Virus record (IMG/VR): IMGVR_UViG_3300045988_007604
Location: 1 to 40,869 of that record
Length of the DNA: 40,869 nucleotides
Origin: a virus
Reading direction: 5' to 3' (one strand)
Shown here: positions 10,051 through 34,085 of the stretch, piece after piece
Layout: each line of letters starts with the position of its first letter
Numbering within the stretch: position 1 is the first letter of the stretch
Notes under the pieces: generated by a model
Told to the model about the DNA's origin: nothing
The model's input: the letters and a program-made list of their open reading frames with translations, nothing else
Databases searched by the model: none
Program-made: the position numbers and the translations under genes

Positions 10051-10073
10051 TTGTACAGCTCCTTTCAAAAAAC

Positions 10074-10688
10074 TTATTTGTTTTCGCTTGCCATGCTTTC
10101 AGCAAGCGCGGCCTGTCTTTCTGCGGTGGACAAAATATACCGGCCTTTATCGTCCTTTTTGTAGATTTCAGCGCGGCTCTTTGCGCCACCAGAGGTGTCA
10201 GGCGGGGTCTGTGTTTGGGTGCCGGTGGTGGTAGTCTTGCCGATCAAGCCCTTGTAATCGCCGGAAAGCAGCCCATCAAGTGCGGCGGTATCTTTGATAC
10301 TTTCGCCGTCCAGTTTCAGGCCGTCAATTTCAGCTTTGGCTCCACGGATTACCAGCCCCATGCTCTCGGCGGGAATGCCCTTGCTCTGGAAGTACGCACG
10401 CGCGGCCTTTTCCTTGGCGGCGGCGCTCTCCTTAGCGGCAACTCCGTCTTTGAAATCCTGAAAGTCTTTCTTTTCCTTCTCGTACTTGGCCTTGTAGCCG
10501 CCGTCAGCGTCATCCTTTTTCAGATCATCCAATTCCTTTTGAATGCCAGGAAGTTTCTCAGCGTCGGCCTTGTACTTCCCGATATCGGCTTTCAGGCCGT
10601 CTACGGTATCGGTGTGTGCTTCAATGATGGTGTCTACCTGTTCGTCGGTAAGCCCCATTCCCTTCAAAAGTTTGCGAGTTAATGCCAT
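10074..10688 (-). CDS. Scaffolding protein
   Basis: 204 aa. Highly charged, Lys/Asp/Glu/Ala-rich helical protein (KADIGKYKADAEKLPGIQKELDDLKKDD...) immediately upstream of the capsid gene. Confidence 0.8.
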   Translation of the reverse strand: MALTRKLLKGMGLTDEQVDTIIEAHTDTVDGLKADIGKYKADAEKLPGIQKELDDLKKDDADGGYKAKYEKEKKDFQDFKDGVAAKESAAAKEKAARAYFQSKGIPAESMGLVIRGAKAEIDGLKLDGESIKDTAALDGLLSGDYKGLIGKTTTTGTQTQTPPDTSGGAKSRAEIYKKDDKGRYILSTAERQAALAESMASENK

Positions 10689-10768
10689 TGTGTCAGTCTT
10701 CCTTTCTTCGCCCCTATTCTTCGGGGACGACTGTGATATAAAAACCGCTATACTTCGCGGGTTTTACC

Positions 10769-10824
10769 AAAATAAACAAAAAAGGAGCCAAACAGCACGC
10801 AAAATCTACGTACTGTTCGGCTCC
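10769..10824 (-). terminator. Rho-independent terminator (minus strand) inside the late region
   Basis: On the minus strand GGAGCCGAACAG-17 nt loop-CTGTTTGGCTCC (12 bp; the single non-Watson-Crick position is a G-U wobble in the minus-strand RNA), followed by TTTTTTGTTTATTTT. A second weaker hairpin AAAACCCGC...GCGGTTTT lies at 10741..10765. Confidence 0.75.
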
Positions 10825-10846
10825 GATTGCCCATTCCTGCGCCCAA

Positions 10847-10981
10847 TTACGCAGGAGAAGAATATTTGATTGTTTTCTTTACTTCGAGGACTATGTAGCC
10901 GTCGCCCTTGCGCCGTATCTCCACATCGTTCCCACGCTTTATGATAGCCTCTATGGCCTTTATGATTTCGTCATTATTCAT
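10847..10981 (-). CDS. Small hypothetical protein (44 aa)
   Basis: ATG 10981 after GGAGCC. Translated by hand: MNNDEIIKAIEAIIKRGNDVEIRRKGDGYIVLEVKKTIKYSSPA, stop TAA 10847..10849. Below the ORF-track cutoff. Confidence 0.45.
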   Translation of the reverse strand: MNNDEIIKAIEAIIKRGNDVEIRRKGDGYIVLEVKKTIKYSSPA

Positions 10982-11027
10982 TTATTCGGCTCCAAGAATG
11001 TTGAATTTTTCTGGTATCCACGCCCAG

Positions 11028-11432
11028 TCAGTCTCCTTTGCTGAGTTCGTCTTTTAGAATGTTTTTGTACGTTCCCTGATGATCGGCGATTGACGGCTTA
11101 ATAAACGGGTGCGCCCGGTTGCCAGCTGTCCAATGCCAGATTCCTTGCTCGTCCTGATAGCACCACGGGGTGGGGCGGCCTCCGCCTCCCTCGGCGTATT
11201 TGCCCGTTCCCATTTCCTGGTAAATGGCGTATCCGGTCGGCGTTCCAACAATGGCTTTCTTCCCATCCTCCACGGTATGTGTAATGCTGTTGCGCAAGTT
11301 CCCAGTATCAACGGGGCATAAATCCTTGGCGTATTCTACAGCTTTTTCTCCGCAGCGTTCCAACCCGCGCTCACACGCTTCACCAAGGGCGCGGAGGATT
11401 TCGTCAGAATTATCCACAAAGGTAATGCTCAT
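11028..11432 (-). CDS. HK97 gp10-family phage protein (neck/tail-completion class), displaced upstream of scaffold
   Basis: 134 aa from ATG 11432 (RBS GGAGTGGGAA). Contains the family motif CPVDTGNLRNSI followed by YAIYQEMGTGKY. The ORF-track N-terminal extension was trimmed. Confidence 0.7.
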   Translation of the reverse strand: MSITFVDNSDEILRALGEACERGLERCGEKAVEYAKDLCPVDTGNLRNSITHTVEDGKKAIVGTPTGYAIYQEMGTGKYAEGGGGRPTPWCYQDEQGIWHWTAGNRAHPFIKPSIADHQGTYKNILKDELSKGD

Positions 11433-11559
11433 TTCCCACTCCTTTTCTGCTTCTTCCAGAGCTGGCCTTGTGCGGTTCATGGCGGCGCATACGCATAATC
11501 CACCACAAGCAGGGATTCCAGCCCGCTTCTTTTTTATCCGGTTGGAAGATTTGGGCATA

Positions 11560-11589
11560 GAAAAAGCACCATGCAATTTGCACAGTGCT
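11560..11589 (-). terminator. Rho-independent terminator (minus strand) after the MuF-toxin/immunity pair
   Basis: Minus strand AGCAC-TG-TGCAA-A-TTGCA-TG-GTGCT (two 5-bp helices with a 2x2 internal loop), followed by TTTTTC. Confidence 0.55.
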
Positions 11590-11653
11590 TTCAGCTAATC
11601 TAAATCTAGTTACTTCCATTTGTCAATTTTTCGCTTTGATGTTGCCTTGGATT

Positions 11654-11956
11654 TTAACGCTCATTACTGAGTACCTTCAAGCATCGTTTCCATTCACTTT
11701 TCTTTTCGGATTCTGGTTTCTGTTCAACGAGTGCGGAAATAAGCGCGCTCCACTGTTTTAAGTTCTCTCCATTCGCGCCCTTATTTTCCAAAAACGCCAA
11801 AGTCTGCTTCATGGGGAACAATTCTGCCCGTGTAATAAAAGATTTTGCAAAATGCCGAGAACAGCCAAGCTTTTCGCATTGCGCGTATACGGCTCCCATT
11901 TCTTTCTGTTCTTGCGCTGCGTGTTTTTCATGCAGCTTTTTTACATACTCAGTCAT
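11654..11956 (-). CDS. Hypothetical 100-aa protein, candidate immunity/antidote for the upstream ART toxin domain
   Basis: ATG 11956 overlaps the MuF-ART stop (11949) by 8 nt, suggesting translational coupling. Helical, no recognizable motif. Followed by a terminator. Confidence 0.4.
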   Translation of the reverse strand: MTEYVKKLHEKHAAQEQKEMGAVYAQCEKLGCSRHFAKSFITRAELFPMKQTLAFLENKGANGENLKQWSALISALVEQKPESEKKSEWKRCLKVLSNER

Positions 11957-13841
11957 CGTCCATCACCATCTTTATGTAATAACGGTATTCTCCCATGATT
12001 TCTTCCTCGCGGACTTCCTTAATCGTAAATGTTGAGCCGCGCTTTAGTAGAAATTCGTACTCAGCATCTTGAAATTGCCCCGCAAGCTGATTGATGTAAG
12101 CTCCGCGCCCCGTTCCGGCAGGAATTTCAATATCAAGGACTGTCGGTTTTGCTGTTGCAACGCCATTGTTTCGAACAACCGTTGTGCTGGAATACGCCGA
12201 TTCGCGGAATTTTTTTCCTATGAGTTCACTCAAACTATCCTGAATGTCGTTATCTTCCACAAGTTTATCAATAACGTCATTCATCACACCGCGCTGGACG
12301 CGAATATTGTCTTTTAACTCATATCGGCTTATTGCGCTATCAAGCCCTTTAATTTGCTGTTTAACAAATTCGGCATTGATATTTTCCCAATCGCCAGTTT
12401 TACGCAAATATGTGTTTATATCCCAATATCCGCCACCGGTGTAATCGCCAATAGCATAATTTTCGTCTTTTGTCAAAGACTTCTGCCATTGCGCATGTTT
12501 GCTGCGTTTCTTCGCAAGCAGCCCGCGTTCATCTCCATCGTAATAGAAGAAATCATTTGCCTCATCACCAGTATAAAACTGTTTATACGATATCGGCTTG
12601 CTGGTTTCTTTTATTATATCAGATTTTGCCGCGCTTGCAACTTGCTTCGCAGTTTTGAGTGCCTCCCACCCATCAGCATTATTATACTTTAAGTCTTGGA
12701 ATTTTGCAAATGTTTTCGGTGCTTTTTTACCCAGAATCTCACGGTACTCTGCATATTCCCGTTGGTCGGCCTGGTAGTTCTTCCCAGCCTTTACCATGCC
12801 CGCCCATTTCTCTGGGGGATACTGAGCTTTCTTTTCGTCGTACCATTCTTTGTACGATTTTTTCTTTACAAGCTCATATTCTCCGGTTTCGGGATTCTTC
12901 ACGCGCATCATGTGGCGTTCCGCTTCCAGATCATCATCCGTGGCATTCACCACCGTGCAGCGGCAATTATACAGCTCATGCCCCGGCGCTCCCAACGAGC
13001 CATCACCGGGGAACATCATCTTATAGCCGCCTACATCAAACGGCTGATCGTAGTCCACAATCTGATTATCTGCCATGCCGTGATCGTGGCGGGTGCGCAA
13101 ATCCTTTGTGGCTACCCACTTTTTCTTGGATTTAATGCCCCACATTTCATCAGCGGCGGCGTAGCTGTCCATTCTCCCGGCGTTCTGTGCGGCGGTAACT
13201 GCCGTTCTTGCCGCTCGAATAGCGCTTACACGGCTCATTGTGACGATTCTGGACTGCAAATCATCGGATATCTGCTTGATGCTTCTGCCTTGCAATATGG
13301 AGCCTGTAACGCTTGCTGTAATCTGCTGCTTGCCAAAAGCCAAATCAATGCCCCGCTTTAGCGCAAGCCTTTCGGGGTAGTATGGCATTACGTCCGGCTG
13401 CTCCACAATTAAGCGCTTTACGGTCTGCTCGTCAAAAAGCGTAAAATCCGCACTCGGGTGAACGCTCTCGATGGTATAGGCGGTGTAATTCCGATTCAGG
13501 GAGTAGATTCCAGGCGTAGCGTCGTTCACATACGCAAGCGCCACCTCTTTTGCTTCCGTCGCACGTTCGGCCAGCTTGTCCCGAAGCGCTTCTAACCGTG
13601 CCCCGCGCCCCATCTGGTTCAGTCGCCATTGTTGGTAGTCCTTTTCAGTCCACTCCTTACCGTTGCGCTTCTGGCCTATCAAGTCCTGCATCTTCTTATC
13701 CTGATCGGCAAAATGCTTGAAAAAAGCATCTATTTCCTCTTGCAGTCCTTTAGCCGCCTGAGAATATATGGAGTTAATGCGGCGTTCCAGATCGGCAAGC
13801 GCCCTGTCGGTTCCCCTATCGGCTTCATTCGGCCTGGGCAT
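11949..13841 (-). CDS. Minor head protein (MuF / SPP1 gp7 domain) fused to a C-terminal ADP-ribosyltransferase toxin domain (MuF polymorphic-toxin type)
   Basis: 630 aa from ATG 13841. The N-terminal two thirds have MuF features ending in ELYNCRCTVV and follow the portal. The C-terminal ~210 aa carry the R-S-E ART signature: AIGDYTGGGYWDINTYLR, IRVQRG, AYSSTTV and QDAEYEFLL (ExE). Confidence 0.8.
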   Translation of the reverse strand: MPRPNEADRGTDRALADLERRINSIYSQAAKGLQEEIDAFFKHFADQDKKMQDLIGQKRNGKEWTEKDYQQWRLNQMGRGARLEALRDKLAERATEAKEVALAYVNDATPGIYSLNRNYTAYTIESVHPSADFTLFDEQTVKRLIVEQPDVMPYYPERLALKRGIDLAFGKQQITASVTGSILQGRSIKQISDDLQSRIVTMSRVSAIRAARTAVTAAQNAGRMDSYAAADEMWGIKSKKKWVATKDLRTRHDHGMADNQIVDYDQPFDVGGYKMMFPGDGSLGAPGHELYNCRCTVVNATDDDLEAERHMMRVKNPETGEYELVKKKSYKEWYDEKKAQYPPEKWAGMVKAGKNYQADQREYAEYREILGKKAPKTFAKFQDLKYNNADGWEALKTAKQVASAAKSDIIKETSKPISYKQFYTGDEANDFFYYDGDERGLLAKKRSKHAQWQKSLTKDENYAIGDYTGGGYWDINTYLRKTGDWENINAEFVKQQIKGLDSAISRYELKDNIRVQRGVMNDVIDKLVEDNDIQDSLSELIGKKFRESAYSSTTVVRNNGVATAKPTVLDIEIPAGTGRGAYINQLAGQFQDAEYEFLLKRGSTFTIKEVREEEIMGEYRYYIKMVMDDD

Positions 13842-15192
13842 TGCCACCACCACCGTAAACCATATTTATGTCCGCGTCCGCTTTCCGTTTCAGAATTTCC
13901 GGCACTTCCTCCGGCAAAAGAAATGGAAGGTGTTTCAAAATCGTTTCGTCATCAAGGAACGCAGCCGCCGAAAGCACCATGTTTGTTTCCTCTGTACGAT
14001 TTATCACCTTGTTCCACGTAAATTCCGGCTGTGGATTACTGATACCAGCAACAGCGCAAATCTGCCGAATGAAATCTATCAGAAAATACTCAAAATCGGC
14101 GCATTTGTTGTCCTGTGGCTGATACGCCGCCGAAATCTCTGTAGCCGTCTTCTCAGCGCCCGCCAGAGCCGTCACATCAAGCATCTGGGCATCCTCGTAC
14201 AGGTCGCGGCGTAAAATATCCAGCATGGTTTTCCGGGCTTCTACAGGAACGTCAAGGGTGTGGGCTTCTGCTGCCGTTCCATCGGAACTATCTACCACAT
14301 TCGCTTTTACGCTCTTCATTCTCTGAATGAACTGCGCCAAATCCTTATCGTCCATAGCGCCGGTATTATGCAGAATCCAGTAAATTCCGCTGGTATCGTC
14401 AATTTGGTTGGCAAACCCGGATTTGATAAAATCATAGCAGTCTATGGAGCCGCGCAACCCAACGAGTTCGCTTTCGTGGGTATCGTTGCCATACAATACC
14501 GCAATAGGCAGGCGGGTATAGTTCTCGTCGCACACATCCACAATGCCCAGATCGTTCCTCAGCTCCTTGTGGATATATGCGCGTTTCTCTGCCATTGGCT
14601 GCGCGTCGTCGCTTCCCTCCGCGCTCCATTCGCTCACGCCGTCCAACTCGTAAAGCGTAGCCCGGAAAACGGTTTTTCGGCCAGTCTCCCGGAACCAGTA
14701 CCGAATACCGGCCATCAGCTCCGACGTTTTTTCGTCCAGCAGCGGAACAAATCCCGGATTTCCGGGAGTATCGGCGAACGAAAACACTTCCAGATGATCG
14801 AGATTCCAATAGCCATAGGAAACGCCCTGCGCCAGCGCCAATTTTGCCGCCGCTTGAAGCTTAATATCAAAATCTGCACCAAGCTTTTCTTTTTCGTCCA
14901 TGCTTACGCCATTAGCGCAAATATAGCCCACCTCCTGCGTCACAAGCCGCCGAAATGTGAGCGTTTTTAGCCGGTAGTCGCTGCTCCAAATATCAGGAGT
15001 TTTATTCCCGGATAAGGTGAAAAGGAATTTCTGGAATTTCTCAATAGTGATGTTGTGCTTATTATAGTACGCCATACCATCAGCGGCATCTTTATACGCC
15101 TTGCTGCCCTGGTGTTCCCGCACGGCATCACGTATGAATTTCCCGGTAGTTCCCTTTGCAATGGCTTCTTCCAAATCTTGATAAATCTTCAT
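13825..15192 (-). CDS. Portal protein
   Basis: 455 aa from ATG 15192 (MKIYQDLEEAI, RBS GGAGAAAA). Lies between TerL and the MuF gene, with SPP1 gp6-like size and order. The ORF-track extension was trimmed. Confidence 0.85.
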   Translation of the reverse strand: MKIYQDLEEAIAKGTTGKFIRDAVREHQGSKAYKDAADGMAYYNKHNITIEKFQKFLFTLSGNKTPDIWSSDYRLKTLTFRRLVTQEVGYICANGVSMDEKEKLGADFDIKLQAAAKLALAQGVSYGYWNLDHLEVFSFADTPGNPGFVPLLDEKTSELMAGIRYWFRETGRKTVFRATLYELDGVSEWSAEGSDDAQPMAEKRAYIHKELRNDLGIVDVCDENYTRLPIAVLYGNDTHESELVGLRGSIDCYDFIKSGFANQIDDTSGIYWILHNTGAMDDKDLAQFIQRMKSVKANVVDSSDGTAAEAHTLDVPVEARKTMLDILRRDLYEDAQMLDVTALAGAEKTATEISAAYQPQDNKCADFEYFLIDFIRQICAVAGISNPQPEFTWNKVINRTEETNMVLSAAAFLDDETILKHLPFLLPEEVPEILKRKADADINMVYGGGGNAQAE

Positions 15193-15224
15193 GAATTTTC
15201 TCCAATAGCAGAAATCTCGCAAAA

Positions 15225-16427
15225 TCACAACAGCGACGCAGCGGCGGGTGAAATCGTGTTTTTCTTCTCCACTTTGTATTTCATAATGGTGTTGCAAAAG
15301 TACCTGATATCATCCATAGCGTGATCGTTATCCTTCACTACCGCGTCCTCCGTTTTCTTATCGTCCCACCGGTAAAGCCCGAACTCGCGAATGGCATCCG
15401 TGCAGCACCGGTGAATTTTTATATTCCCGTTCTTGAGATATACCGCCGTTCGCCGAATGCCGTCAAGAACGGCGTTGTCTGCCTGCTGGACGCGGAATTT
15501 TCGGCGTTTCAGGGCGGTAATGAAAGAAGCCGCCGAAGGATCAATAACCGCCCTCTTGATTTCGTAGCCGTCCGTCAGGCTCTCCACAGCGTCGCAATAT
15601 TCCTCGTCTGTGAGCTGCTTATAGTTGGCTCTTCCATCGTAGTAATACTCCTTGATCCTTTCCGCCTTATTACCATTCACAGCCCACAATCCGCATGAAA
15701 ATGGATTCAGGGTGCCGTAGTCGATGCTTATGTAATAATCCGCGAATTCCGGCACTTCATCCGTGATATTCGCTTCGGAAAAATCATATACAAGCCCCTC
15801 TGCCAGCGTCCATTTTCCCAGAATGTACCTATCATAGAACACCGTTCCGGCATATTCTTTTTTCAGATTTTCAACAAAAGTGGGGGGTAAAAATGGATTA
15901 TCGTCTATTGTGTATTCCTGGCTGAAAATATCGGCATCACTATCAAGGAATCTCTTTAGCCAGTGGTTGGGATACTGTGGATTGTACGTGCCATCGAAGC
16001 AGGAATACTCCTTATCAAGCCGGCTTTTCAGGAGGGCAAAAACTTCCTCCGACCAGTCCGCGACCTCGTCGCCGTAGCAATACTTGATAGACGCGCCGCG
16101 AATCTTCGATACCTGAGACACTTTTTCCGCGCCAAGGCAATAACACTTCTCGCCAAAAATCCACGCTGTATTATCGCTGGAAATCGCCCCAACAAGTTTA
16201 TCACCGTACAGATTCCGCATAGGCTCTAGCACATTTCGCTCTATTGTGGATTTTGTAACGCCCAAAATAACGGAAAGCCCATCTTTTCCGGCTCGTTCTC
16301 GAATCCGCATGGGAATAATCCACTTGAAATCAAGATATGTTTTCCCGCTTCGGGTCGCGCCACCCTTGAAATTCCATCGGTGATTCCCGTACCTTGCAAA
16401 TTCAATCTGTTTCGGGCTTAATAGCAT
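15225..16427 (-). CDS. terL: Terminase large subunit (PBSX/XtmB-like)
   Basis: 400 aa. Walker A-like GGATRSGKT near the N-terminus, acidic nuclease-type C-terminal half, RBS AAGGAG. Overlaps the TerS end. Confidence 0.9.
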   Translation of the reverse strand: MLLSPKQIEFARYGNHRWNFKGGATRSGKTYLDFKWIIPMRIRERAGKDGLSVILGVTKSTIERNVLEPMRNLYGDKLVGAISSDNTAWIFGEKCYCLGAEKVSQVSKIRGASIKYCYGDEVADWSEEVFALLKSRLDKEYSCFDGTYNPQYPNHWLKRFLDSDADIFSQEYTIDDNPFLPPTFVENLKKEYAGTVFYDRYILGKWTLAEGLVYDFSEANITDEVPEFADYYISIDYGTLNPFSCGLWAVNGNKAERIKEYYYDGRANYKQLTDEEYCDAVESLTDGYEIKRAVIDPSAASFITALKRRKFRVQQADNAVLDGIRRTAVYLKNGNIKIHRCCTDAIREFGLYRWDDKKTEDAVVKDNDHAMDDIRYFCNTIMKYKVEKKNTISPAAASLL

Positions 16428-19972: not shown

Positions 19973-20383
19973 TTATTCCTCCAAATCCATTTTTGCGCCG
20001 CAATGGCAATATGGGTATAGACGGCGAACAACTCCGTATTCACCGGCTTCAAGCAATATACCTATGGCGTCAGTATCAACCTTACGCCCACACACCGAGC
20101 ATACCAGACATAAAGCCGATCTGCGCGGGCGCCGGATATTCCAGTTACCATGCCGCACCGGCTCCACGTCGGCGGCTGGAGAATCCACCTCAAATTCTTC
20201 GGACAGCCATTTCCGGACAAATGACAAGTTGGCTGAGCCGAGCCCAACGTGCATCTCTCCGTCTTGCCACCACATGATGTTGTAATAAGTCTTTTCTGGG
20301 TTGTTATTCACAATGATTCTCGCGAACGAGGTTTTAATCTTTTCTCGCTTCGCAGCCGCCTCCCGGCTGATATAATCACTCAT
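19973..20383 (-). CDS. Hypothetical protein (136 aa) with C-terminal Cys pairs
   Basis: ATG 20383 (MSDYISREAAAKREKIK), RBS GGAGGAATTGAA, ATGA overlap with the ASCH gene stop. CxxC...CxC near the C-terminus. Confidence 0.6.
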   Translation of the reverse strand: MSDYISREAAAKREKIKTSFARIIVNNNPEKTYYNIMWWQDGEMHVGLGSANLSFVRKWLSEEFEVDSPAADVEPVRHGNWNIRRPRRSALCLVCSVCGRKVDTDAIGILLEAGEYGVVRRLYPYCHCGAKMDLEE

Positions 20384-20883
20384 TTCAATTCCTCCACGTA
20401 GCACCAACTCTGGGGCGGGCGTTTGATATGACCGCCATATTCGCAATATGCACATCCATATTCATCACACACTTTGCCTATGCAGATTTCAAACGGGCGT
20501 GAAAACTCGCTCAGCTTCTTCGGCGTATCGTAGATTTCCAGGTTGGAAATGTGCCAGCCGTACAGTGTTGCACCTTTTCCGTAGTCCCACAAAGCACCGT
20601 CCACAAGCATAGTCTGCGCCACAAAGTCATCGTCCACATCGTAGATTCCATACGGTTCTGTTGCCGCCTTGATGGTTTCAACCCGGTCGCAAATAAACTC
20701 CCCAATGACCTTGCCCCATGAGCCGCGCAGTCTGCGTGCGTCGTTGCCTTGCGTGCAGTAGATGTAGCATTTGAACGGCGTGTCCAGCTTTGGCCTGGTT
20801 TTTCGCACCTCAACGGTCTTTTCACCTCTGGCGATCTTCTCCACCCACTCCGGGCGGATGCTGATAAGTACCGCGTTAGCCAT
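20380..20883 (-). CDS. ASCH-domain protein
   Basis: 167 aa from ATG 20883 (RBS GGAGGGCTGAAC). The N-terminal AVLISIRPEWVEKIARGEKTVEVRKTRP is the typical ASCH opening motif. Cys-rich C-terminal tail. Confidence 0.7.
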   Translation of the reverse strand: MANAVLISIRPEWVEKIARGEKTVEVRKTRPKLDTPFKCYIYCTQGNDARRLRGSWGKVIGEFICDRVETIKAATEPYGIYDVDDDFVAQTMLVDGALWDYGKGATLYGWHISNLEIYDTPKKLSEFSRPFEICIGKVCDEYGCAYCEYGGHIKRPPQSWCYVEELK

Positions 20884-21079
20884 GTTCAGCCCTCCGGTTC
20901 CACGCTTCAATTGCTTCTTGTTCTTTCGCGTAATGGCCAGTAGAAGCACCACATCCACCAATGTTTGCACTACAGATCACATCATAATCCCGAAAGTTGT
21001 ATTCTTTGATGGTCACTCCATGCAGTTCAGGGTTGATGAACCCGCAAAAAGGGCAGGGCTTCAATTTGATTTCGTCCAT
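20876..21079 (-). CDS. lar: Lar-family restriction alleviation protein
   Basis: 67 aa. LKPCPFCG...VICS..GGCGA...EQEAIEAWNRRA matches the Lar family signature (PCPFCG zinc ribbon plus AI.AWNRR). Confidence 0.75.
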   Translation of the reverse strand: MDEIKLKPCPFCGFINPELHGVTIKEYNFRDYDVICSANIGGCGASTGHYAKEQEAIEAWNRRAEHG

Positions 21080-21081
21080 GT

Positions 21082-21768
21082 TTATCCCTCCATTTTTCCC
21101 CGCAGGGAATCCTTGATGTAGTAATCAAGCCCAAGCCTCTGGCAGAGCTGTTCCACATCCTGCCCGAACTGCTTCCAGTCGATATTGCTCGGATGGTAGT
21201 TCAGTTTCCCGATTTTTACCTTGTCGATAATATCGTAGCATTCCGAAAGCATCTCCATGACTCCGTGAGGATTCAGCACCGGCTCACAGGATACCCATGT
21301 GCTGATACCGCACTGCTTCGCGGAGTACAGGTCGATCAGCCGGTCAGAGGGGGCATAGGTGCCAATATTGGAGCCGTCATAGGTGATTCCGTACCAGTCG
21401 TTTTTGTCAAGCAAGTCAAAATCTCTGCTACCATCGCCCTTGGTAAGAATCTGAACATGGTTCCCGCTCTCTTTGATGGTTTCGATAACCGCCCTGGTGG
21501 TGGAAGTATCGTAGCCCGTGGGGTACGGGTCGCATGTGAAGCAAAGGTGTATAAGCTGCCCCTTGACCTGCTCTTTCTCCAACTGCTGTTCCAGCGCCTC
21601 CACCAGCCCCGGGCGGGGTGTAACATTGGCGTGAAATGCTTCCCGGTCACGGTGCAGCACATTCGGCGCAAAACAGTAGTAGCACCTGTGGGGGCAGCCG
21701 ATGTAAATATTGACGGCGTAATCGCCGTATTCCTTGGCTTTTCCTTTCGGAATATACAAAGGTTTCAT
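21082..21768 (-). CDS. Small radical-SAM protein (CxxxCxxC; SplB/COG1533-like opening motif)
   Basis: 228 aa. NIYIGCPHRCYYCFAP gives Cys25-x3-Cys29-x2-Cys32. A downstream CFTCDPYP resembles the tDPYqp motif of the DNA-photolyase-like radical-SAM group. RBS GGAGAG. Confidence 0.7.
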   Translation of the reverse strand: MKPLYIPKGKAKEYGDYAVNIYIGCPHRCYYCFAPNVLHRDREAFHANVTPRPGLVEALEQQLEKEQVKGQLIHLCFTCDPYPTGYDTSTTRAVIETIKESGNHVQILTKGDGSRDFDLLDKNDWYGITYDGSNIGTYAPSDRLIDLYSAKQCGISTWVSCEPVLNPHGVMEMLSECYDIIDKVKIGKLNYHPSNIDWKQFGQDVEQLCQRLGLDYYIKDSLRGKMEG

Positions 21769-21811
21769 GTTTTTACTCTCCTTCCCGCCCGGGTTGCCCC
21801 GGGCTTATCTG

Positions 21812-22246
21812 CTATCTAAAAATCACTACCATAGACGGAAACGGTGCTGGGTTCATTGCCACCCCGTTTTCATCTTCAAATTTTAACCGTCCACGCAGAA
21901 ACCGAATTTCCGCTTTTCCGTATATGTAATCGTGGAAATAGCTTGTGTCCGTCCGTGCCGGAATCAACATGACGATTGTCACACCCCCACGGACATGTTC
22001 AGAATATGCCTTTTGAACCCATTTCCCGATCTCCCTGCCATAGGGTGGGTTGCAAAACACAGCCCCATACCCGCTCCACGAACAGGATAACCCATCCATT
22101 TCTGGCGTAAAATATCGTTCACACTTGGCGTTTTCAGGGGAAGCGGCGGCATCTAAGCCGAAGTGAAATTCTTGATCCAACTTCTGAAAGAAGTCTTTCG
22201 GCGTTCGCCAGTCCATTTTCAAGCTGGATAATAACGCTTTGTTCAT
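21812..22246 (-). CDS. dam: Phage DNA N6-adenine methyltransferase (Dam family)
   Basis: 144 aa from ATG 22246 (MNKALLSSLKMDWRTPKDFF). Catalytic FCNPPYG motif, then LIPARTDTSYF. The ORF-track extension was trimmed. Confidence 0.8.
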   Translation of the reverse strand: MNKALLSSLKMDWRTPKDFFQKLDQEFHFGLDAAASPENAKCERYFTPEMDGLSCSWSGYGAVFCNPPYGREIGKWVQKAYSEHVRGGVTIVMLIPARTDTSYFHDYIYGKAEIRFLRGRLKFEDENGVAMNPAPFPSMVVIFR

Positions 22247-22292
22247 CCCATCACCCCCACGGTTTGCGATTCCTCGCAGGCTATCAGAACTT

Positions 22293-22691
22293 TCATTTCT
22301 CCCCCTCGCTTTCTGCCGGGGCTTTGAGCCATGCCAACCTGCATTCCTCGCACCCCGGCATATTCTCGCAGATATCTTTACACCCCTCGCAAATAAACGT
22401 TCCGGTGCTGAGTAACTTCGCCAGCTCCGCATCCGTCATGTTCCGGATTCTGTCACCGTTTGTTTTCGGCTTCACTTTTCGCTGAGATTCAAGCTTCCGC
22501 TTTGCTTCAAGCGCATCCTGAAAGCAATTGGCCGCATCGTGGAGACCGGCAGCCCATACCTGGTGCATCATTTCCATTTCCCATGCCCTTGGGTTTTTGC
22601 AGCACCCATTTTCTCCATGCTTGTGGTTTACTGGGTTTGGCGTAAGCTGTTCTACAACGTTGCTCATTTCCCATTCCCTTTCTGTTTGCAT
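22293..22691 (-). CDS. Hypothetical Cys-rich protein (132 aa)
   Basis: C-terminal MTDAELAKLLSTGTFICEGCKDICENMPGCEECRLAWL, a recurrent phage small-protein pattern. Confidence 0.55.
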   Translation of the reverse strand: MQTEREWEMSNVVEQLTPNPVNHKHGENGCCKNPRAWEMEMMHQVWAAGLHDAANCFQDALEAKRKLESQRKVKPKTNGDRIRNMTDAELAKLLSTGTFICEGCKDICENMPGCEECRLAWLKAPAESEGEK

Positions 22692-30016: not shown

Positions 30017-30220
30017 TTAGTGTAAAAAAATAAGTGCCTTTTCTGCCGGGTCGGTGATGCCAAGCTTCTCGCATATAGCCTCTATCTCGATAGTGTTAAA
30101 CGGAATCTTCCCGTTCACCTTGGAATTCAATGTGTTTTTGGACATACCGATTTCCAGAGCCAGAGACCGCTGAGTAAATCCCGCTTCTACAATCTTCCCT
30201 TTTAACTTGTTCGTCGACAT
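30017..30220 (-). CDS. cro: Cro-like XRE-family HTH protein (first gene of the lytic-direction operon)
   Basis: 67 aa. GFTQRSLALEIGMSKNTLNSKVNGK is a classic XRE HTH. Divergent from the CI-like gene. RBS GGAAGGAGGG. Confidence 0.75.
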   Translation of the reverse strand: MSTNKLKGKIVEAGFTQRSLALEIGMSKNTLNSKVNGKIPFNTIEIEAICEKLGITDPAEKALIFLH

Positions 30221-30258
30221 GCTTTGCCCTCCTTCCGTCTCGTTTTTGGGACGCCTTT

Positions 30259-30287
30259 ATACTATCACGCTTCTCCTCATTTGTCAA
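30259..30287 (-). promoter_or_regulatory. Early lytic promoter (TTGACA-17-TAGTAT), minus strand
   Basis: The minus strand reads TTGACA (30287..30282), a 17-nt spacer, then TAGTAT (30264..30259). About 38 nt upstream of the cro-like ATG. Confidence 0.65.
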
Positions 30288-30328
30288 CCCAAAATTGGGA
30301 CAATTTTGAAAAATTTTTTGTTCCGGTA

Positions 30329-30357
30329 TTGCAATTTTGGGATAACCGTGTTATTCT
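30329..30357 (+). promoter_or_regulatory. Candidate repressor promoter (TTGCAA-17-TATTCT), plus strand
   Basis: TTGCAA 30329..30334, 17-nt spacer containing TTTTGGGAT, TATTCT 30352..30357. The RBS GGGAGGTG precedes ATG 30381. Confidence 0.5.
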
Positions 30358-30380
30358 ATACGCAGAAGGGAGGTGCCATT

Positions 30381-30728
30381 ATGAGCGATATTTCAAAGAG
30401 AATCCTAGAAACGATAACTTGCAAGGATATCTCCTATGGCGATTTATCGGATAAAACAGGTATTCCAAAGTCTGCTTTACAGCGGTATGCTACCGGGCAG
30501 ACGGAGAAGATTCCAATTGATCGGCTCGAAAAAATTGCAAGCGCAATCGGCGTAACGACATCATTCCTTATGGGTTGGGACAGCGCCGACAAAAAAGAAC
30601 AGCTCACCGTTCCCAGTGAGCTGTCTGACGTAAAAGCGCGGCTTATTCAATATGTGTATCCTTTAACAGACGAACAGGCAGCCCTTGCGCTTCGAGTTTT
30701 GAAATCAATTCTGGAAGACGCTGAATGA
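30381..30728 (+). CDS. CI-like XRE-family repressor
   Basis: 115 aa from ATG 30381. ISYGDLSDKTGIPKSALQRYATGQTEKIPIDRLEKIASAIGV is an XRE HTH. Divergent from the cro-like gene. Confidence 0.75.
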   Translation: MSDISKRILETITCKDISYGDLSDKTGIPKSALQRYATGQTEKIPIDRLEKIASAIGVTTSFLMGWDSADKKEQLTVPSELSDVKARLIQYVYPLTDEQAALALRVLKSILEDAE

Positions 30729-30792
30729 TTTTCTTCATGTCTGCTTCTGTCAAATTGGATATGTACCGGATCAGTTCTTCTCTTTCCTTCAT
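30643..30792 (-). CDS. Candidate 49-aa ORF antisense-overlapping the repressor 3' end
   Basis: ATG 30792 after GGAGGGTACAGAC: MKEREELIRYISNLTEADMKKIIQRLPELISKLEAQGLPVRLLKDTHIE. Overlaps 30381..30728 by 86 nt. It may be a shadow ORF. Confidence 0.3.
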   Translation of the reverse strand: MKEREELIRYISNLTEADMKKIIQRLPELISKLEAQGLPVRLLKDTHIE

Positions 30793-30910
30793 GTCTGTAC
30801 CCTCCATTGTGTATTTATAAACGTTTGTTTGCTTACAAGCCACATAGTACACCATGTTCTGTCCAATAAACCGGACTAATTAGAAATTTGCACAAAAATT
30901 TTTCTTTTCG

Positions 30911-30939
30911 TTGAAATTATATGTCGAACGTGGTATTAT
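30911..30939 (+). promoter_or_regulatory. Strong sigma-70-type promoter (TTGAAA-17-TATTAT) for the SAP-domain gene
   Basis: TTGAAA 30911..30916, 17-nt spacer, TATTAT 30934..30939. About 80-nt leader to GTG 31022. Confidence 0.6.
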
Positions 30940-31021
30940 TTTCCTGTGTGATTGTCCAGCGTTGGGATTATTTTGTACTCTCCGGCAACCGCCGATATAG
31001 AAATAAAGGAGAAATGCTACT

Positions 31022-32128
31022 GTGGAAAAACCTACCCGTCAAAACGAAAAGGCCATAAGTCGCGCAAACGCAAATATTTCAATATCTGTACATGAACCAA
31101 CACCAGAGGAATTAAGACAGCAACAATACGACACCGTTCGCGAAATCAAGAAATTGAGAGATGCCTCATTCCCCAGCAAAAACGGTCTCCGCCCCCATGA
31201 AATTCTCATGCTTTCCTATGCTCCAAAATTTCATGTCGGGCAAAAGAATTTCCAACAGTTTTGGTATTACAAATACGCCGTTTCTAATCCCAACGAGCTG
31301 TTGGAATCCTTGGTGTCAAAAGGGTTCATTCGGAAATGTTCTGCTGTGGAATCTCTCGGTAATTTGAAAGTCCCGGAGTTAAAAGCTATTTTATCCGAAA
31401 GTGGGTTGAAAGCGACTGGTAAGAAGCCTGATTTGATTTTGCGTATCACAAACGAGGTAGCCCCCGATGCGATTGAGCGTAATGTTAATTGTCGAAACTA
31501 TGCGCTTACTGAATTAGGCAAGACTGAATTGCAGGAAAACGAGTATGTAATATACATGCACGGATATAGATATAGCAATATTTCTGTGTGGACAATAAAC
31601 AAGGCAATGCAGGGATATCCGGCAAGACTATGGCGTGATAGAATCTGGGCTGAGCTAAACCGATTGCAGTTGGAAGCTTTCAGGGACATCGATCGCGGGA
31701 ATTATAGCCCGTATGTATCCATTCGCTACCAGCAAGCAGATTTTTTAATCGAGGAAAAGCGGTATGGTGATGCAATCACAATCATACTAGATGCACTTGA
31801 TAAATCATTGAACTACATCGCCGCAAAAAGATTTGAACTTGAGATTGAATTTCGAAAAACCGGTTTTAAGAGTGGTACGATTCCATCTTACGCAGAGCTC
31901 GTCAATGATTGCTGCGGTTTTGGTTTCCGTTTGTTGCAAAGGATATTAGATGCGTTTTCTCCTAGTAAGCCATACGATATTCTGATATCTGAAACATATG
32001 ACAGCCTTAAAATAAAAAAAGTACTCCTATCCAAAGACGAGTTTATTTCCATTCTACAATCACAGATTACCGGTGACATGAATACATTTTTGAGGGTTTG
32101 CAACAACGTGCAAAAGCGGCTTTTATAG
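31022..32128 (+). CDS. SAP-domain protein of unknown function (lysogeny-side moron; candidate defence/exclusion factor)
   Basis: 368 aa from GTG 31022 (RBS AAAGGAGAAA). SAP motif LKVPELKAILSESGLKATGKKPDLILRI, then a long helical C-terminal half. Visibly AT-rich relative to the rest of the genome. Confidence 0.7.
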   Translation: MEKPTRQNEKAISRANANISISVHEPTPEELRQQQYDTVREIKKLRDASFPSKNGLRPHEILMLSYAPKFHVGQKNFQQFWYYKYAVSNPNELLESLVSKGFIRKCSAVESLGNLKVPELKAILSESGLKATGKKPDLILRITNEVAPDAIERNVNCRNYALTELGKTELQENEYVIYMHGYRYSNISVWTINKAMQGYPARLWRDRIWAELNRLQLEAFRDIDRGNYSPYVSIRYQQADFLIEEKRYGDAITIILDALDKSLNYIAAKRFELEIEFRKTGFKSGTIPSYAELVNDCCGFGFRLLQRILDAFSPSKPYDILISETYDSLKIKKVLLSKDEFISILQSQITGDMNTFLRVCNNVQKRLL

Positions 32129-32135
32129 GTGATTT

Positions 32136-32170
32136 GCCCCGCCACCCGTGCCACAAGGTGGCGGGGCTTG
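32136..32170 (+). terminator. GC-rich hairpin terminator after the SAP gene
   Basis: GCCCCGCCACC-10 nt-GGTGGCGGGGC (11 bp perfect) followed by a weak T tract (TTG). Confidence 0.55.
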
Positions 32171-32308
32171 CCGCCGGTAACGCCGTGTGTCCCTTGCCGG
32201 TTGCAATATCACCATAGCATTTTCAGCCAGAGAAAGTAAACCACACATCTGATTCCACCGCAATCAAATGTGCACAATCCAATATCAAATTTAATAGGAG
32301 GGCGAATT

Positions 32309-33031
32309 ATGGATTCAAATACAGGCCAAACATTCATCGAGGAAATGCAGCCGAATTTCGATGCCCTCCCGGAAAGGCTGAAAGACGAGAAATTCAGGAA
32401 TCATCTGACGAACCAGCAGCTTTCTGACGTGTCCGGCGTTCCCATCGCCACCACAAGCCGGATTCTTTCCGGTGCCGTATCGAACCCCGGCTTTTTCCAT
32501 ATCGCCGCGCTGTGCGCCGCTATGGACGTGTCAATGGATTCCGTTGCAGGTGTTCACCCAAGCGGAGATCAGGCGGAAATAGACCAGCTCCGGCAGGAGA
32601 TAGCATACAAGGACGAGATAATTGCCGAGAAGGGCGCGGCGATAGACCGCCTACTGGACAGGAGCCGCATTATGGAGGCTGGTGTCGCGGCCAGAGATGA
32701 CCGCATCAGCAAGCAAAGCGAAGCCCTTTCTAAAAAAGACAGTGCGCTTGCATCCGTGCAAAGGGAAAATAAGCCCTTGATTTACGGGCAGTGCGCATTA
32801 AACATTCTGCTGACGGCGGTACTCATGATCTATATGGTGCTGGACGCCCGGAACCCGGAAATGGGGCTAATTCGCTCCGAAAAGATTTCTGCGGTAATTT
32901 TAGTTGGCGCGGCAGGAATCGCCGCCGTTTTTATGCTCACGGCATTTTTGATTTTCCACAAGCTATTAAGTGGAGGTGAACGGGATGGCAAAAAGAAAGA
33001 AGGAGCCGGAAATCAGGCTCCCAAAAATTAA
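32309..33031 (+). CDS. Membrane-anchored XRE-type HTH protein (HTH + coiled coil + two TM helices)
   Basis: 240 aa from ATG 32309 (RBS AGGAGGGCGAATT). HTH LTNQQLSDVSGVPIATTSRILSG, coiled coil DQLRQEIAYKDEIIAEKGAAIDRLL, TM segments ALNILLTAVLMIYMVL and AVILVGAAGIAAVFMLTAFLIF. Overlaps the int start. Confidence 0.7.
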   Translation: MDSNTGQTFIEEMQPNFDALPERLKDEKFRNHLTNQQLSDVSGVPIATTSRILSGAVSNPGFFHIAALCAAMDVSMDSVAGVHPSGDQAEIDQLRQEIAYKDEIIAEKGAAIDRLLDRSRIMEAGVAARDDRISKQSEALSKKDSALASVQRENKPLIYGQCALNILLTAVLMIYMVLDARNPEMGLIRSEKISAVILVGAAGIAAVFMLTAFLIFHKLLSGGERDGKKKEGAGNQAPKN

Positions 33032-34085
33032 GCAGCTCCCATCCGGGGCGTGGCACACACGTGTATTGATAGAGAATCGCCGCGTATCCATTACGAAAGA
33101 TACATATGATGAATGCGTGGCCGAATATCTGGCCTTGAAAAACGGCCTTGTGGAAATCCGCGAGAAGAAAGACGGGAAAGACATCACGCTAGAGGAAGCC
33201 GCCAAAAGCTACATTGCATCGAAAGAGGGCTTTCTCTCCCCATCCACCATTGCCGGGTACGAGAAGTTCAAGCGGAATATGCTGCCAGGCATGATGAAGC
33301 GGAACATTTTCACAGTCTCCAATGACCAATGGCAGGCCGCTATCAGGCAGGAACACAAGGCCGGGAAATCCCCGAAGTATATCAAAAATGGGTGGATGTT
33401 CTTTTCCGCCTGCATCGTCGCCGCCGGTGCTCCGCGCCCGGAGGTGATGCTGTATCCCCCGGAACACAACGAACGGGCATACCTCACGCCGGACGAGATA
33501 GATAAGTTTGTGGAGGCTATAAAAGGCCACCGATTTGAAATCCCGTATCTGATGTGCCTTTCCTCCCTGCGCCGTTCGGAAATGATCGCCATGGACTGGG
33601 CAAACATAGATCTGGAAAACAAAGTGATGCACGTTCGCGGCGCAATCGTCATGGGGACGGCTGGGCTTGTGCAGAAGCCACAAAACAAAACGGCGAAGTC
33701 CCGCCGCTCTGTGCCTATCATTCCGCCGCTTCTGGAAGCGCTGAAAGCGCAGGAGCAGAAGACCGGAAACGTGGTAAAGGCAAGCGCAGAAACCATCTAC
33801 AATAATTTGGGCAAAGTCTGCGCCGCCGCTGGAATCACCGTGGTTGATCTGCATGGGCTGCGCCACAGCTTTGCATCTCTGGCCTACCACTTGCAAATTC
33901 CGGAAATGATCGCCGCCGAAATCGGCGGGTGGAGTGACTTGTCTACCATGCACAATATCTACACGCACCTCGCCCAGAAAGATATTGCCAAACGCTCAAG
34001 CGACTTCTGCGACTACTTCACCGCCGAAGCGATGAAAAAGCGCAAATTGGCAACGGAATTGGAAACGAAAAATAAAAGTTACTAG
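32985..34085 (+). CDS. int: Tyrosine recombinase / phage integrase
   Basis: 366 aa from ATG 32985 (RBS GGAGGTGAACGGG). Catalytic-domain motifs LSSLRRSE (Arg), HGLRHSFASL (H-x-x-R) and MHNIYTHL (Tyr). Directly followed by the tRNA-fragment attP. Confidence 0.9.
   Translation: MAKRKKEPEIRLPKIKQLPSGAWHTRVLIENRRVSITKDTYDECVAEYLALKNGLVEIREKKDGKDITLEEAAKSYIASKEGFLSPSTIAGYEKFKRNMLPGMMKRNIFTVSNDQWQAAIRQEHKAGKSPKYIKNGWMFFSACIVAAGAPRPEVMLYPPEHNERAYLTPDEIDKFVEAIKGHRFEIPYLMCLSSLRRSEMIAMDWANIDLENKVMHVRGAIVMGTAGLVQKPQNKTAKSRRSVPIIPPLLEALKAQEQKTGNVVKASAETIYNNLGKVCAAAGITVVDLHGLRHSFASLAYHLQIPEMIAAEIGGWSDLSTMHNIYTHLAQKDIAKRSSDFCDYFTAEAMKKRKLATELETKNKSY
34041..34069 (+). repeat. Direct repeat copy 1 (two tandem ATTGG(C/A)AACG units) at the integrase 3' end, left of the attP core
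   Basis: cgcaaattggcaacggaattggaaacgaa. The first 17 nt are identical to 34281..34297, and the rest differs by one indel and one mismatch. Confidence 0.8.

What the first reader, a model, noticed from the sequence alone, without database searches (positions are those of the whole stretch)
11949..12600. Virion head protein (MuF) carries a C-terminal ADP-ribosyltransferase toxin domain
The last ~210 residues of the 630-aa MuF/SPP1-gp7-like protein contain the full R-S-E ART signature. The motifs are AIGDYTGGGYWDINTYLR (NAD-pocket helix of C3/VIP2-type enzymes), IRVQRG (Arg), AYSSTTV (STS) and QDAEYEFLL (ExE). MuF proteins are packaged in capsids and can be ejected with the DNA, so this looks like an injected ART effector. 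Fusions of MuF to variable toxin modules are a described class (MuF polymorphic toxins of temperate phages). The target of this ART module is unknown. Hand counts of single 60-nt lines give 32-43% G+C within 12181..12420, against 53% at 13201..13260 in the MuF part, which is consistent with acquisition of the toxin module.
Basis: partly seen in the sequence, partly recalled or inferred. Interest (0 to 1): 0.7.

Follow-up and report, generated by a model that had tools for sequence, protein, structure and literature searches.

The report
Phage head protein fused to ADP-ribosyltransferase toxin
A temperate gut phage carries a head protein whose tail end is an intact ADP-ribosylating toxin domain, swapped in as a cassette together with a small probable antidote gene; this is a clear but ordinary example of the already described MuF phage toxins.

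Summary
The ORF at 11949..13841 (-), 630 aa from its ATG, combines a Phage_Mu_F domain with a C-terminal ADPrib_exo_Tox domain (Pfam E 1e-31). R517, S552-T-T554 and E594-Y-E596 are invariant among homologues. The AlphaFold model (pLDDT 88) matches Certhrax, Lmo0066, VIP2, CDTa, iota Ia and C3. GC3 is 34% in the toxin part against 58-60% in the MuF part.

The unit is larger than the finding. A cassette of about 1 kb (about 11640..12645) holds the ART domain plus an overlapping 100-aa ORF (11654..11956). Phages 93-98% identical on both flanks carry other C-terminal modules there (Ntox50, a DUF6883-like module, HExxH modules, two other ART subtypes). Each non-protease module has its own unrelated small ORF. 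Phages with only 57% identical MuF parts carry the same ART (86%) and the same small ORF. The small ORF is a five-helix protein with no known relatives, most likely a non-enzymatic immunity protein.

MuF-ART toxins are already published (Jamet 2017; EFV; Bxa; Iyer 2022). This is a new member of a known kind. Packaging, injection, target and immunity remain inferred. The window is a temperate siphovirus, probably of Oscillospiraceae/Clostridia.

The parts
11949..13841 (-). MuF-ART fusion gene, 630 aa from the ATG at 13841 (an in-frame GTG at 13853 would give 634 aa). Its start overlaps the 3' end of the portal gene by 17 nt.
   Evidence: ORF list. Homologues are 630 aa and start M(P/A)RPNEADRG. 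Pfam PF04233 plus PF03496.
12951..13328 (-). Phage_Mu_F (SPP1 gp7-like) domain, taken to be the head/portal-targeting part.
   Evidence: Pfam PF04233, E 3.7e-16, residues 176-301 of the 634-aa reading. PHROG minor head protein / head morphogenesis families.
12657..13841 (-). Conserved backbone part of the protein (residues 1 to ~395). It is 95-98% identical in sister phages that carry other C-terminal modules.
   Evidence: Alignment A1, tblastn table, blastn borders.
12681..12704 (-). Junction motif KFQDLKYN (residues 380-387). It is the last stretch conserved across all C-terminal variants, just before the sequences diverge.
   Evidence: Alignment A1, coordinates. blastn homology with sister phages ends between 12605 and 12709.
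11640..12645 (-). Exchangeable cassette: ART toxin domain plus the small downstream ORF. G+C is 42.8% against 51.2% for the window.
   Evidence: Sister phages (L004-L009) lose homology at 12605-12709 and regain it at 11438-11595. Phages of another backbone (L001-L003) align at 74% over exactly 12645..11640. Composition.
11952..12584 (-). Folded ADP-ribosyltransferase domain (residues ~420-630). The Pfam ADPrib_exo_Tox match covers 11970..12500.
   Evidence: Pfam E 1.1e-31. AlphaFold2 pLDDT 88.1, ordered from about residue 20 of the 230-aa query. Foldseek hits to Certhrax, 8za7_B, VIP2, CDTa, Plx2A, iota Ia and C3 at E 1e-13 to 5e-16.
12291..12293 (-). Catalytic arginine R517 (in VQRG).
   Evidence: Aligned to the Arg of BECa/Lmo0066. 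Invariant in alignment A2, column R117.
12180..12188 (-). S552-T553-T554, the 'STS' motif.
   Evidence: Aligned to STT of BECa and Lmo0066. S152 is invariant in A2.
12054..12062 (-). E594-Y595-E596, the ExE motif of the ARTT loop. The E-x-E form is typical of arginine-specific enzymes.
   Evidence: Aligned to EYE of BECa. E194-Y195-E196 are invariant in A2.
11654..11956 (-). 100-aa ORF whose ATG overlaps the toxin gene's stop codon (ATGA). It is the candidate cognate immunity protein, an all-helical protein of unknown family.
   Evidence: ORF. Homologues of ~100 aa are conserved over the full length. It lies immediately downstream of type-A MuF-ART genes on this backbone and on others. It is absent from sister phages with other modules. 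AF2 gives a 5-helix bundle with pLDDT 78. There is no PDB, Pfam, PHROG or PADLOC match.
13825..15192 (-). SPP1 gp6-like portal gene (455 aa), immediately upstream and overlapping. It is the presumed docking partner of the MuF domain.
   Evidence: Pfam SPP1_portal, E 2.8e-33. 455-aa homologues at 95-97% identity. The docking role is inferred from SPP1 gp7-gp6, as cited in PMC5576092 and PMC10083569.

Best explanation
The gene encodes a MuF polymorphic toxin of a temperate siphovirus from gut Clostridia.

- Delivery part (inferred): residues 1 to ~395 form an SPP1-gp7-like minor head protein. It is made with the portal and is probably carried into the capsid in a few copies.
- Linker: a lysine-rich stretch ends in a conserved KFQDLKYN junction.
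- Toxin part (shown by sequence and fold): residues ~420-630 form a catalytically intact R-S-E mono-ADP-ribosyltransferase of the C3/VIP2/iota/Certhrax type (PF03496). The E-x-E loop predicts that it transfers ADP-ribose from NAD+ to arginine side chains of target proteins.
- Cassette (shown): the toxin domain and the overlapping 100-aa gene behind it form one exchangeable unit that moves between phage lineages.
- Immunity (inferred): the 100-aa helical protein is most likely a non-enzymatic immunity protein. It would bind the ART and keep it inactive in the producing cell during virion assembly, and possibly in lysogens.
- Site of action (inferred): the toxin most likely acts in a bacterial cytoplasm after delivery with the phage DNA. 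The target is unknown.
For: - Domains and catalytic residues.
- Fold: AF2 pLDDT 88. Foldseek top hits are all R-S-E ART toxins at E down to 5e-16, with TM 0.85 to Lmo0066 (8za7_B).
- Head-module position: the gene lies between the SPP1-type portal gene (upstream, overlapping) and the scaffold gene.
- Polymorphism on one backbone: sister phages are 95-98% identical over residues 1-395. They carry Ntox50, DUF6883-like, ATLF/HExxH, unknown or other ART C-termini instead.
- Cassette transfer: the ART is 86-87% identical in phages whose MuF N-part is 57-59% and whose portal is 38% identical. The nucleotide homology there spans exactly 12645..11640.
- Foreign composition: GC3 is 34% in the ART against 58-61% in the MuF part and neighbouring genes.
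- Small-ORF pairing, type A: the type-A ART is followed by the 100-aa family in every locus examined (window, L001-L003, L013-L015).
- Small-ORF pairing, type B: the ART is 60% identical and is followed by an unrelated 111-aa ORF on two backbones.
- Small-ORF pairing, type C: the ART is 30% identical and is followed by an unrelated 102-aa ORF.
- No small ORF follows the HExxH modules.
- Temperate phage: integrase and repressor-like HTH proteins.
[quoted passage not shown] Bxa is a MuF-ART that is arginine-specific, bactericidal and blocked by the adjacent binder Bsi (PMC11699363).
Against: - Nothing here shows enzyme activity, toxicity, binding of the small protein, presence in virions or injection.
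- PMC10083569 states that carriage and injection of MuF toxins are untested.
- The small ORF is much less conserved (55-58%) than the ART (86%) between backbones. That fits fast-evolving immunity, but also looser functional coupling.
- The small protein has no similarity to any known immunity protein.
- No ADP-ribosylhydrolase is encoded in the window, unlike the Bxa and Lmo0066 systems.
- Arginine specificity is inferred from the E-x-E motif alone.
Confidence: 0.72

Rival explanations
1. Bxa-like role. The fusion protein is released when the prophage is induced and the cell lyses. It then ADP-ribosylates proteins of the mammalian gut epithelium, acting as a colonisation factor for the lysogen population. 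The small ORF only protects the producer until lysis. This could be true in addition to a bacterial role.
For: The relatives come from human gut metagenomes and MAGs. Bxa is a gut-prophage MuF-ART that modifies non-muscle myosin II and promotes colonisation (PMC11699363 and PMC10083569, both citing Brown 2021). The closest folds include actin- and vinculin-modifying toxins: iota Ia, CDTa, VIP2, Certhrax.
Against: No uptake or translocation component is seen (no binary-toxin B component, no signal peptide region identified). A cognate immunity-like gene argues for a bacterial target. Resemblance to eukaryote-directed toxins is at the level of the fold (21-27% identity).
Confidence: 0.15
2. T4 Alt-like takeover or anti-defence effector. 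The injected ART modifies specific host proteins (for example RNA polymerase or a defence protein) to favour the infecting phage and is not a killing toxin. The small ORF would then be a regulator or packaging chaperone rather than immunity.
For: Head-packaged ARTs fused to MuF are interpreted this way in PMC9503650. Jamet et al. suggest low-toxicity ARTs may steer the lysis-lysogeny decision (PMC5576092). There is a weak match to the PHROG Alt-like family (phrog_802, E 2e-5, residues 336-504).
Against: On the same backbone the module is exchangeable with nuclease-type (Ntox50) and protease-type modules. That fits interchangeable toxins better than one dedicated takeover function. The strict pairing of each ART subtype with its own small ORF is the signature of toxin-immunity pairs.
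Confidence: 0.1
3. The domain works mainly as an NAD+ glycohydrolase that depletes NAD, or is an inactive relic kept for a structural role in the head.
For: Some ART-fold polymorphic toxins are NADases (abstract of PMC13285283). No activity data exist for this subfamily.
Against: R, S-T-T and E-x-E are all intact and invariant across homologues down to 39% identity, as in proven transferases. Conservation at 86% across diverged phages argues against a relic.
Confidence: 0.03

Closest known systems
MuF polymorphic toxins of temperate phages (Jamet et al. 2017, PMC5576092), including the EFV toxin of the Enterococcus faecalis V583 prophage
   Same: N-terminal Phage_Mu_F domain, position in the packaging/head module next to the portal, variable C-terminal toxin, small ORF downstream, temperate phage. 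In that survey ARTs make up 14% of 191 MuF toxins. A cultured example with the same layout is Enterococcus phage AE4_2: a minor head protein with a C-terminal ART followed by an overlapping 67-aa ORF.
   Different: The ART is only about 29% identical to the Enterococcus phage one. This protein has a ~90-residue lysine-rich linker with a KFQDLKYN junction. The host lineage (Oscillospiraceae/Clostridia MAGs) and the small-ORF family are not described.
Bxa / Bsi / BAH of the Bacteroides stercoris prophage PhiBxa (PMC11699363)
   Same: [quoted passage not shown] Bxa is shown to be arginine-specific, which the E-x-E motif predicts here. An adjacent small non-enzymatic protein (Bsi) blocks the active site. 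It belongs to a family with swapped C-terminal toxins.
   Different: Bxa is 869 aa and from Bacteroidota. Its locus also encodes an ARH1-type ADP-ribosylhydrolase (BAH). No hydrolase is found anywhere in this window. Sequence relatedness to Bxa and Bsi could not be tested because their sequences were not on hand.
Lmo0066 ART-ARH effector-immunity pair of Listeria monocytogenes (PDB 8za7)
   Same: Best sequence hit in the PDB (E 9e-15) and best structural superposition (TM 0.85 on the target, 27% identity). The R / S-T-T motifs are the same.
   Different: The immunity partner is an ADP-ribosylhydrolase, by the entry title, not a small helical protein. It is not fused to a phage head protein.
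Enzymatic components of binary toxins and C3-like exoenzymes (BECa/CPILE-a, iota Ia, CDTa, VIP2, Certhrax, Plx2A, C3bot), Pfam PF03496
   Same: Fold and the R-S-E catalytic motifs. The E-x-E form matches the arginine-specific members.
   Different: Identity is 21-27%. Those are secreted toxins acting on eukaryotic actin, vinculin or Rho. This one is fused to a virion protein and paired with an immunity-like gene.
Phage T4 Alt (head-packaged, injected ART)
   Same: The idea of an ART carried in the capsid and delivered with the DNA (PMC9503650).
   Different: Alt is not a MuF fusion and belongs to a virulent myovirus. It has no immunity gene. Only a weak profile match was found here.

Membership tests
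MuF polymorphic toxins (Jamet 2017) | N-terminal Phage_Mu_F / SPP1 gp7-like domain | tested here: met
   PF04233, E 3.7e-16, 60 bits against a cut-off of 29.6. PHROG minor head / head morphogenesis families.
MuF polymorphic toxins (Jamet 2017) | Gene sits in the DNA-packaging/head module next to the portal and terminase genes | tested here: met
   Gene order on the - strand: terminase 15225-16427, portal 13825-15192, MuF-ART, small ORF, gp10-like, scaffold 10074-10688.
MuF polymorphic toxins (Jamet 2017) | C-terminal extension is a toxin domain also used by other toxin delivery systems | tested here: met
   PF03496, E 1.1e-31. The closest solved relative is the ART of a Listeria effector-immunity pair, 8za7. 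A homologue is fused to Phage_min_cap2 instead of MuF (P0128).
MuF polymorphic toxins (Jamet 2017) | Polymorphism: conserved N-terminal part with different C-terminal modules among close relatives | tested here: met
   Residues 1-395 are 95-98% identical, with Ntox50, DUF6883-like, ATLF/HExxH, unknown and two other ART subtypes as C-termini.
MuF polymorphic toxins (Jamet 2017) | Small ORF (<150 aa) directly downstream that changes with the toxin module (putative immunity) | tested here: met
   100-aa ORF 11654..11956. It co-occurs with type-A ART on several backbones. It is replaced by unrelated ORFs with other modules.
MuF polymorphic toxins (Jamet 2017) | Encoded by a temperate phage or prophage | tested here: met
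   Tyrosine integrase 32970-34085 and HTH repressor-like genes.
MuF polymorphic toxins (Jamet 2017) | Toxicity of the C-terminal domain and protection by the downstream protein | not testable with these tools
   This needs expression experiments.
R-S-E clade mono-ADP-ribosyltransferases (C3/VIP2/iota type, PF03496) | ART fold with N-terminal helical bundle | tested here: met
   AF2 pLDDT 88, pTM 0.83. Foldseek gives 143 PDB matches at E <= 0.001; all 50 listed are ART toxins.
R-S-E clade mono-ADP-ribosyltransferases (C3/VIP2/iota type, PF03496) | Catalytic Arg, Ser-Thr-Ser/Thr and (E/Q)-x-E motifs in register | tested here: met
   R517, S552-T-T554 and E594-Y-E596 align to those of BECa and Lmo0066. 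They are invariant in 15 homologues.
R-S-E clade mono-ADP-ribosyltransferases (C3/VIP2/iota type, PF03496) | NAD+-dependent transfer of ADP-ribose to a protein side chain | not testable with these tools
   This is a biochemical assay.
ART + ADP-ribosylhydrolase immunity systems (Bxa-BAH, Lmo0066-ARH) | Adjacent ARH/macro-type hydrolase that reverses the modification | tested here: not met
   No ARH, Macro or NADAR hit in 66 window ORFs scanned against Pfam. The neighbouring ORF is a 100-aa helical protein.
Head-packaged injected ARTs (T4 Alt type) | Protein present in virions and delivered to the host with the DNA | not testable with these tools
   Inferred only from the MuF fusion and gene position. 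It is still untested for toxin-bearing MuF proteins according to PMC10083569.

The most novel reading that the evidence does not exclude
Within one gut-phage lineage, three ART subtypes (30-60% identical) each travel with their own unrelated small protein. The 100-aa five-helix protein here (three invariant cysteines, only 33 representative clusters among 1.84 billion) would then be a new family of specific, non-enzymatic ART inhibitors. On this reading the diversification reflects an immunity-specificity arms race in which virion-delivered ARTs act against bacteria that lack the matching prophage.
Probability: 0.4. Interest if true: 0.45.

Novelty: new member of a known kind. Interest (0 to 1): 0.3.

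Why it matters
MuF-fused toxins are common in gut prophages, but it is still not known whether they are packaged and injected, or what they are for. This lineage offers a clean natural experiment. Near-identical phages differ only in a ~1-kb toxin-plus-small-ORF cassette, and three ART subtypes have three unrelated partners. That would make tests of cognate immunity, virion carriage and target choice straightforward. It does not change what is known about the class.

Tried and rejected
- Small ORF as a scaffolding protein: the Pfam Phage_T7_Capsid hit is below threshold (18 bits against 27.1) and the family has no PHROG hit. Rejected.
- Small ORF as a known fold: the best Foldseek PDB match has E 0.7. 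No match.
- Defence-system membership: PADLOC gave no hit for either protein.
- Low G+C as a by-product of a Lys/Asn/Ile-rich protein: rejected, because third codon positions drop from 58-60% to 34%.
- Internal promoter for the small ORF: 6 promoter-like sites against 3.2 +/- 1.7 expected in 10600-13000, which is not above chance. No claim is made.
- Structured RNA between the small ORF and the gp10-like gene: z-score -0.22. Only a local hairpin is present.
- Hydrolase-type immunity elsewhere in the window: none found.
- Close cultured relatives: megablast of 9000-17000 against GenBank phages gave only one unannotated faecal contig at 75% identity over 20% of the query.
- Word-indexed searches with the ART domain or the small ORF alone returned few candidates, so counts from them are not measures of abundance.
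- Literature on 8za7/Lmo0066: no paper on the structure was found.
- Brown et al. 2021 could not be read and is cited only through PMC11699363 and PMC10083569.
Full report
**1. What is in the sequence.**
The finding lies at the 3' end of a minus-strand ORF, 11949..13853, which is 634 aa from the first GTG. Its homologues are 630 aa and begin M(P/A)RPNEADRG.

Pfam finds Phage_Mu_F (PF04233, E 3.7e-16) and ADPrib_exo_Tox (PF03496, E 1.1e-31, 110 bits against a cut-off of 23.4). The four quoted motifs are all present, in 630-aa numbering:
- AIGDYTGGGYWDINTYLR at residues 463-480.
- IRVQRG at residues 513-518.
- AYSSTTV at residues 549-555.
- QDAEYEFLL at residues 591-599.

In HMMER alignments to solved toxins, R517, S552-T553-T554 and E594-Y595-E596 fall on the catalytic Arg, the STS motif and the ExE motif of BECa and Lmo0066. 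All are invariant in 15 homologues that go down to 39% identity.

**2. Fold.**
An AlphaFold2 model of residues 401-630 has mean pLDDT 88 and pTM 0.83. It is disordered only for the first ~13 residues and ordered from about residue 420. Foldseek against the PDB gives 143 matches at E <= 0.001. The top matches are Certhrax, Lmo0066 (8za7_B, TM 0.85 on the target), VIP2, CDTa, Plx2A, iota Ia and C3. The domain is a C3/VIP2-type R-S-E ART. The E-x-E form of the loop, rather than Q-x-E, is the form found in arginine-specific enzymes. That is an inference from family knowledge, not a result.

**3. Composition.**
The drop is not a side effect of amino-acid content. GC3 is 34% in the ART part and 45% in the next gene. 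It is 58-61% in the MuF part, the portal, the gp10-like gene and the scaffold gene. The low-G+C tract extends past the stop codon.

**4. Context.**
On the minus strand the order is as follows:
- large terminase (15225..16427)
- SPP1-type portal (13825..15192)
- MuF-ART
- a 100-aa ORF (11654..11956) whose ATG overlaps the toxin gene's TGA
- an HK97-gp10/Neck1-like gene (11031..11432)
- a 44-aa ORF
- the scaffold gene (10074..10688)

The rest of the window encodes these functions:
- siphovirus tail proteins (SPP1 Dit, Gp37-like)
- holin and an M15 endolysin
- RecT/YqaJ, SSB, RusA and Dam
- a tyrosine integrase (32970..34085) and HTH proteins

It is a temperate siphovirus genome or prophage. The only relatives in named genomes are MAGs of Dysosmobacter, Clostridia and "Firmicutes". 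No close relative exists among GenBank phages.

**5. The unit is a cassette, not just a domain.**
A search with the whole protein finds more than 4000 relatives. Proteins 93-98% identical over the first ~395 residues end in different C-termini:
- Ntox50 (P0060)
- a DUF6883-like module (P0039)
- an ATLF-like HExxH module (P0053)
- another HExxH module (P0046)
- an unknown module followed by a DUF7675 ORF (P0018)
- two further ART subtypes (P0012, P0014)

The last shared stretch is ...KFQDLKYN (residues 380-387).

At the DNA level, these sister phages align at 93-97% down to 12605-12709 and again from 11438-11595 onward. Conversely, phages with a different backbone carry the same ART at 86-87% identity, although their MuF N-part is 57-59% identical and their portal 38%. 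Their nucleotide homology to the window covers exactly 12645..11640, which is the ART plus the 100-aa ORF. This reciprocal pattern, together with the GC3 shift, shows that a ~1-kb cassette was exchanged by recombination.

**6. The small ORF behaves like a cognate immunity gene.**

| C-terminal module | Loci | Small ORF directly downstream |
|---|---|---|
| Type-A ART | window, L001-L003, L013-L015 | 100-aa family, 55-64% identical, full-length including the first 19 residues |
| Type-B ART (60% identical to the window's) | L018, L011 | Unrelated 111-aa ORF; present on both backbones, 58% identical to each other |
| Type-C ART (30% identical) | L016 | Third, unrelated 102-aa ORF |
| Ntox50, DUF6883-like, unknown | L007, L006, L009 | Their own 62-, 53- and 71-aa ORFs |
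| Two HExxH modules | L004/L005, L008 | None |

The 100-aa protein is predicted as a five-helix bundle (pLDDT 78). It has three invariant cysteines. It has no match in the PDB, Pfam, PHROGs or PADLOC. A full profile search of 1.84 billion representatives finds only 33 relatives, nearly all about 100 aa. It is not a hydrolase, and no ARH, Macro or NADAR gene is found in the window.

The most likely role is a binding inhibitor, like Bsi for Bxa (PMC11699363). This is an inference. One caution is that it is far less conserved (55-58%) than the ART (86%) between backbones.

**7. Mechanism proposed.**
- Shown: an intact ART domain is fused to a MuF head protein, and a toxin plus small-ORF cassette is exchanged.
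- Inferred from SPP1 gp7 (a low-copy portal-bound head protein, as summarised in PMC5576092 and PMC10083569): the fusion is incorporated into capsids through the MuF part.
- Inferred: the ART is held inactive by the small protein in the producing cell. It acts by arginine ADP-ribosylation in a bacterial cytoplasm after delivery with the DNA.
- Rivals: a Bxa-like action on gut epithelium after lysis, an Alt-like takeover or anti-defence role, and an NADase or relic. The first two are not exclusive of the main reading.

**8. Comparison with what is known.**
MuF polymorphic toxins were defined by Jamet et al. (PMC5576092). They are found in temperate phages only. [quoted passage not shown] EFV of E. 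faecalis V583 is a MuF-ART that is toxic in yeast. Iyer et al. (PMC9503650) state that many Alt/VIP2-family ARTs are fused to MuF. Bxa is a characterised gut-prophage MuF-ART with two immunity proteins (PMC11699363). A cultured Enterococcus phage shows the same layout.

Every defining feature of the class that can be tested in silico is met here. The differences are of degree:
- a distinct ART subfamily (at most 29% identical to the characterised or cultured examples seen)
- no hydrolase-type immunity
- an undescribed small-protein family
- an uncultured Clostridia phage lineage

**9. Verdict.**
This is a new member of a known kind, and interest is modest. The added value of this second look is the exact cassette borders, the candidate immunity gene, and a natural series of three ART subtypes with three unrelated partners on one phage backbone.

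Noticed in passing
L018:2501-4709; L011:4520-5908; L016:3001-5219: There are two further ART subtypes on the same or other phage backbones, each with its own unrelated small downstream ORF (111 aa and 102 aa). In the MAG locus L011 the type-B ART reads in frame into the 111-aa-type sequence, and the MuF gene is split. This is either a real toxin-immunity fusion or an assembly error.
   Followed up: partly
L004:4001-6147; L008:3001-5547: Sister phages whose MuF C-terminus carries an HExxH metallopeptidase-like motif (HEFAH in P0046; HELGH/ATLF in P0053) have no small ORF between the MuF gene and the gp10-like gene.
   Followed up: partly
window 10983..10986: The window lacks the 113-aa ORF that close relatives carry between the gp10-like gene and the 44-aa ORF (for example L004:6154-6495). 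The blastn alignment joins across this point.
   Followed up: no
window 10784..10824 (-) and 11558..11597 (-): A 19-bp-stem hairpin followed by a T-run sits between the 44-aa ORF and the scaffold gene, inside the late operon. A 14-bp hairpin sits just after the small ORF at the 3' edge of the cassette, preceded by a TTGACA-18-TAGATT promoter-like site (11626..11597).
   Followed up: no
window 12681..12704 (-): A conserved KFQDLKYN-type motif (FQ[DN][LM]KYN) occurs immediately before the point where all C-terminal variants diverge. It is reminiscent of the junction motifs of other polymorphic toxins. It is absent from the 565-aa backbone that carries the same ART.
   Followed up: partly
window 30207..34085 (+): The lysogeny region holds an HTH protein, a 368-aa SAP-domain protein (31022..32128), a second HTH-like protein and a tyrosine integrase. 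The lowest G+C of the window (40.7% in a 1-kb window) lies near 30626.
   Followed up: no
window 20380..22432 (-): The early region encodes a radical-SAM/DUF5131 protein (21082..21768) next to a Dam methyltransferase (21812..22432) and an ASCH-domain protein (20380..20970). This may be a DNA-modification or anti-restriction set.
   Followed up: no
P0128: A homologous ART domain (55% identical) is fused to Phage_min_cap2 (PF06152) instead of MuF. The same toxin type is therefore attached to a second kind of minor capsid protein.
   Followed up: no
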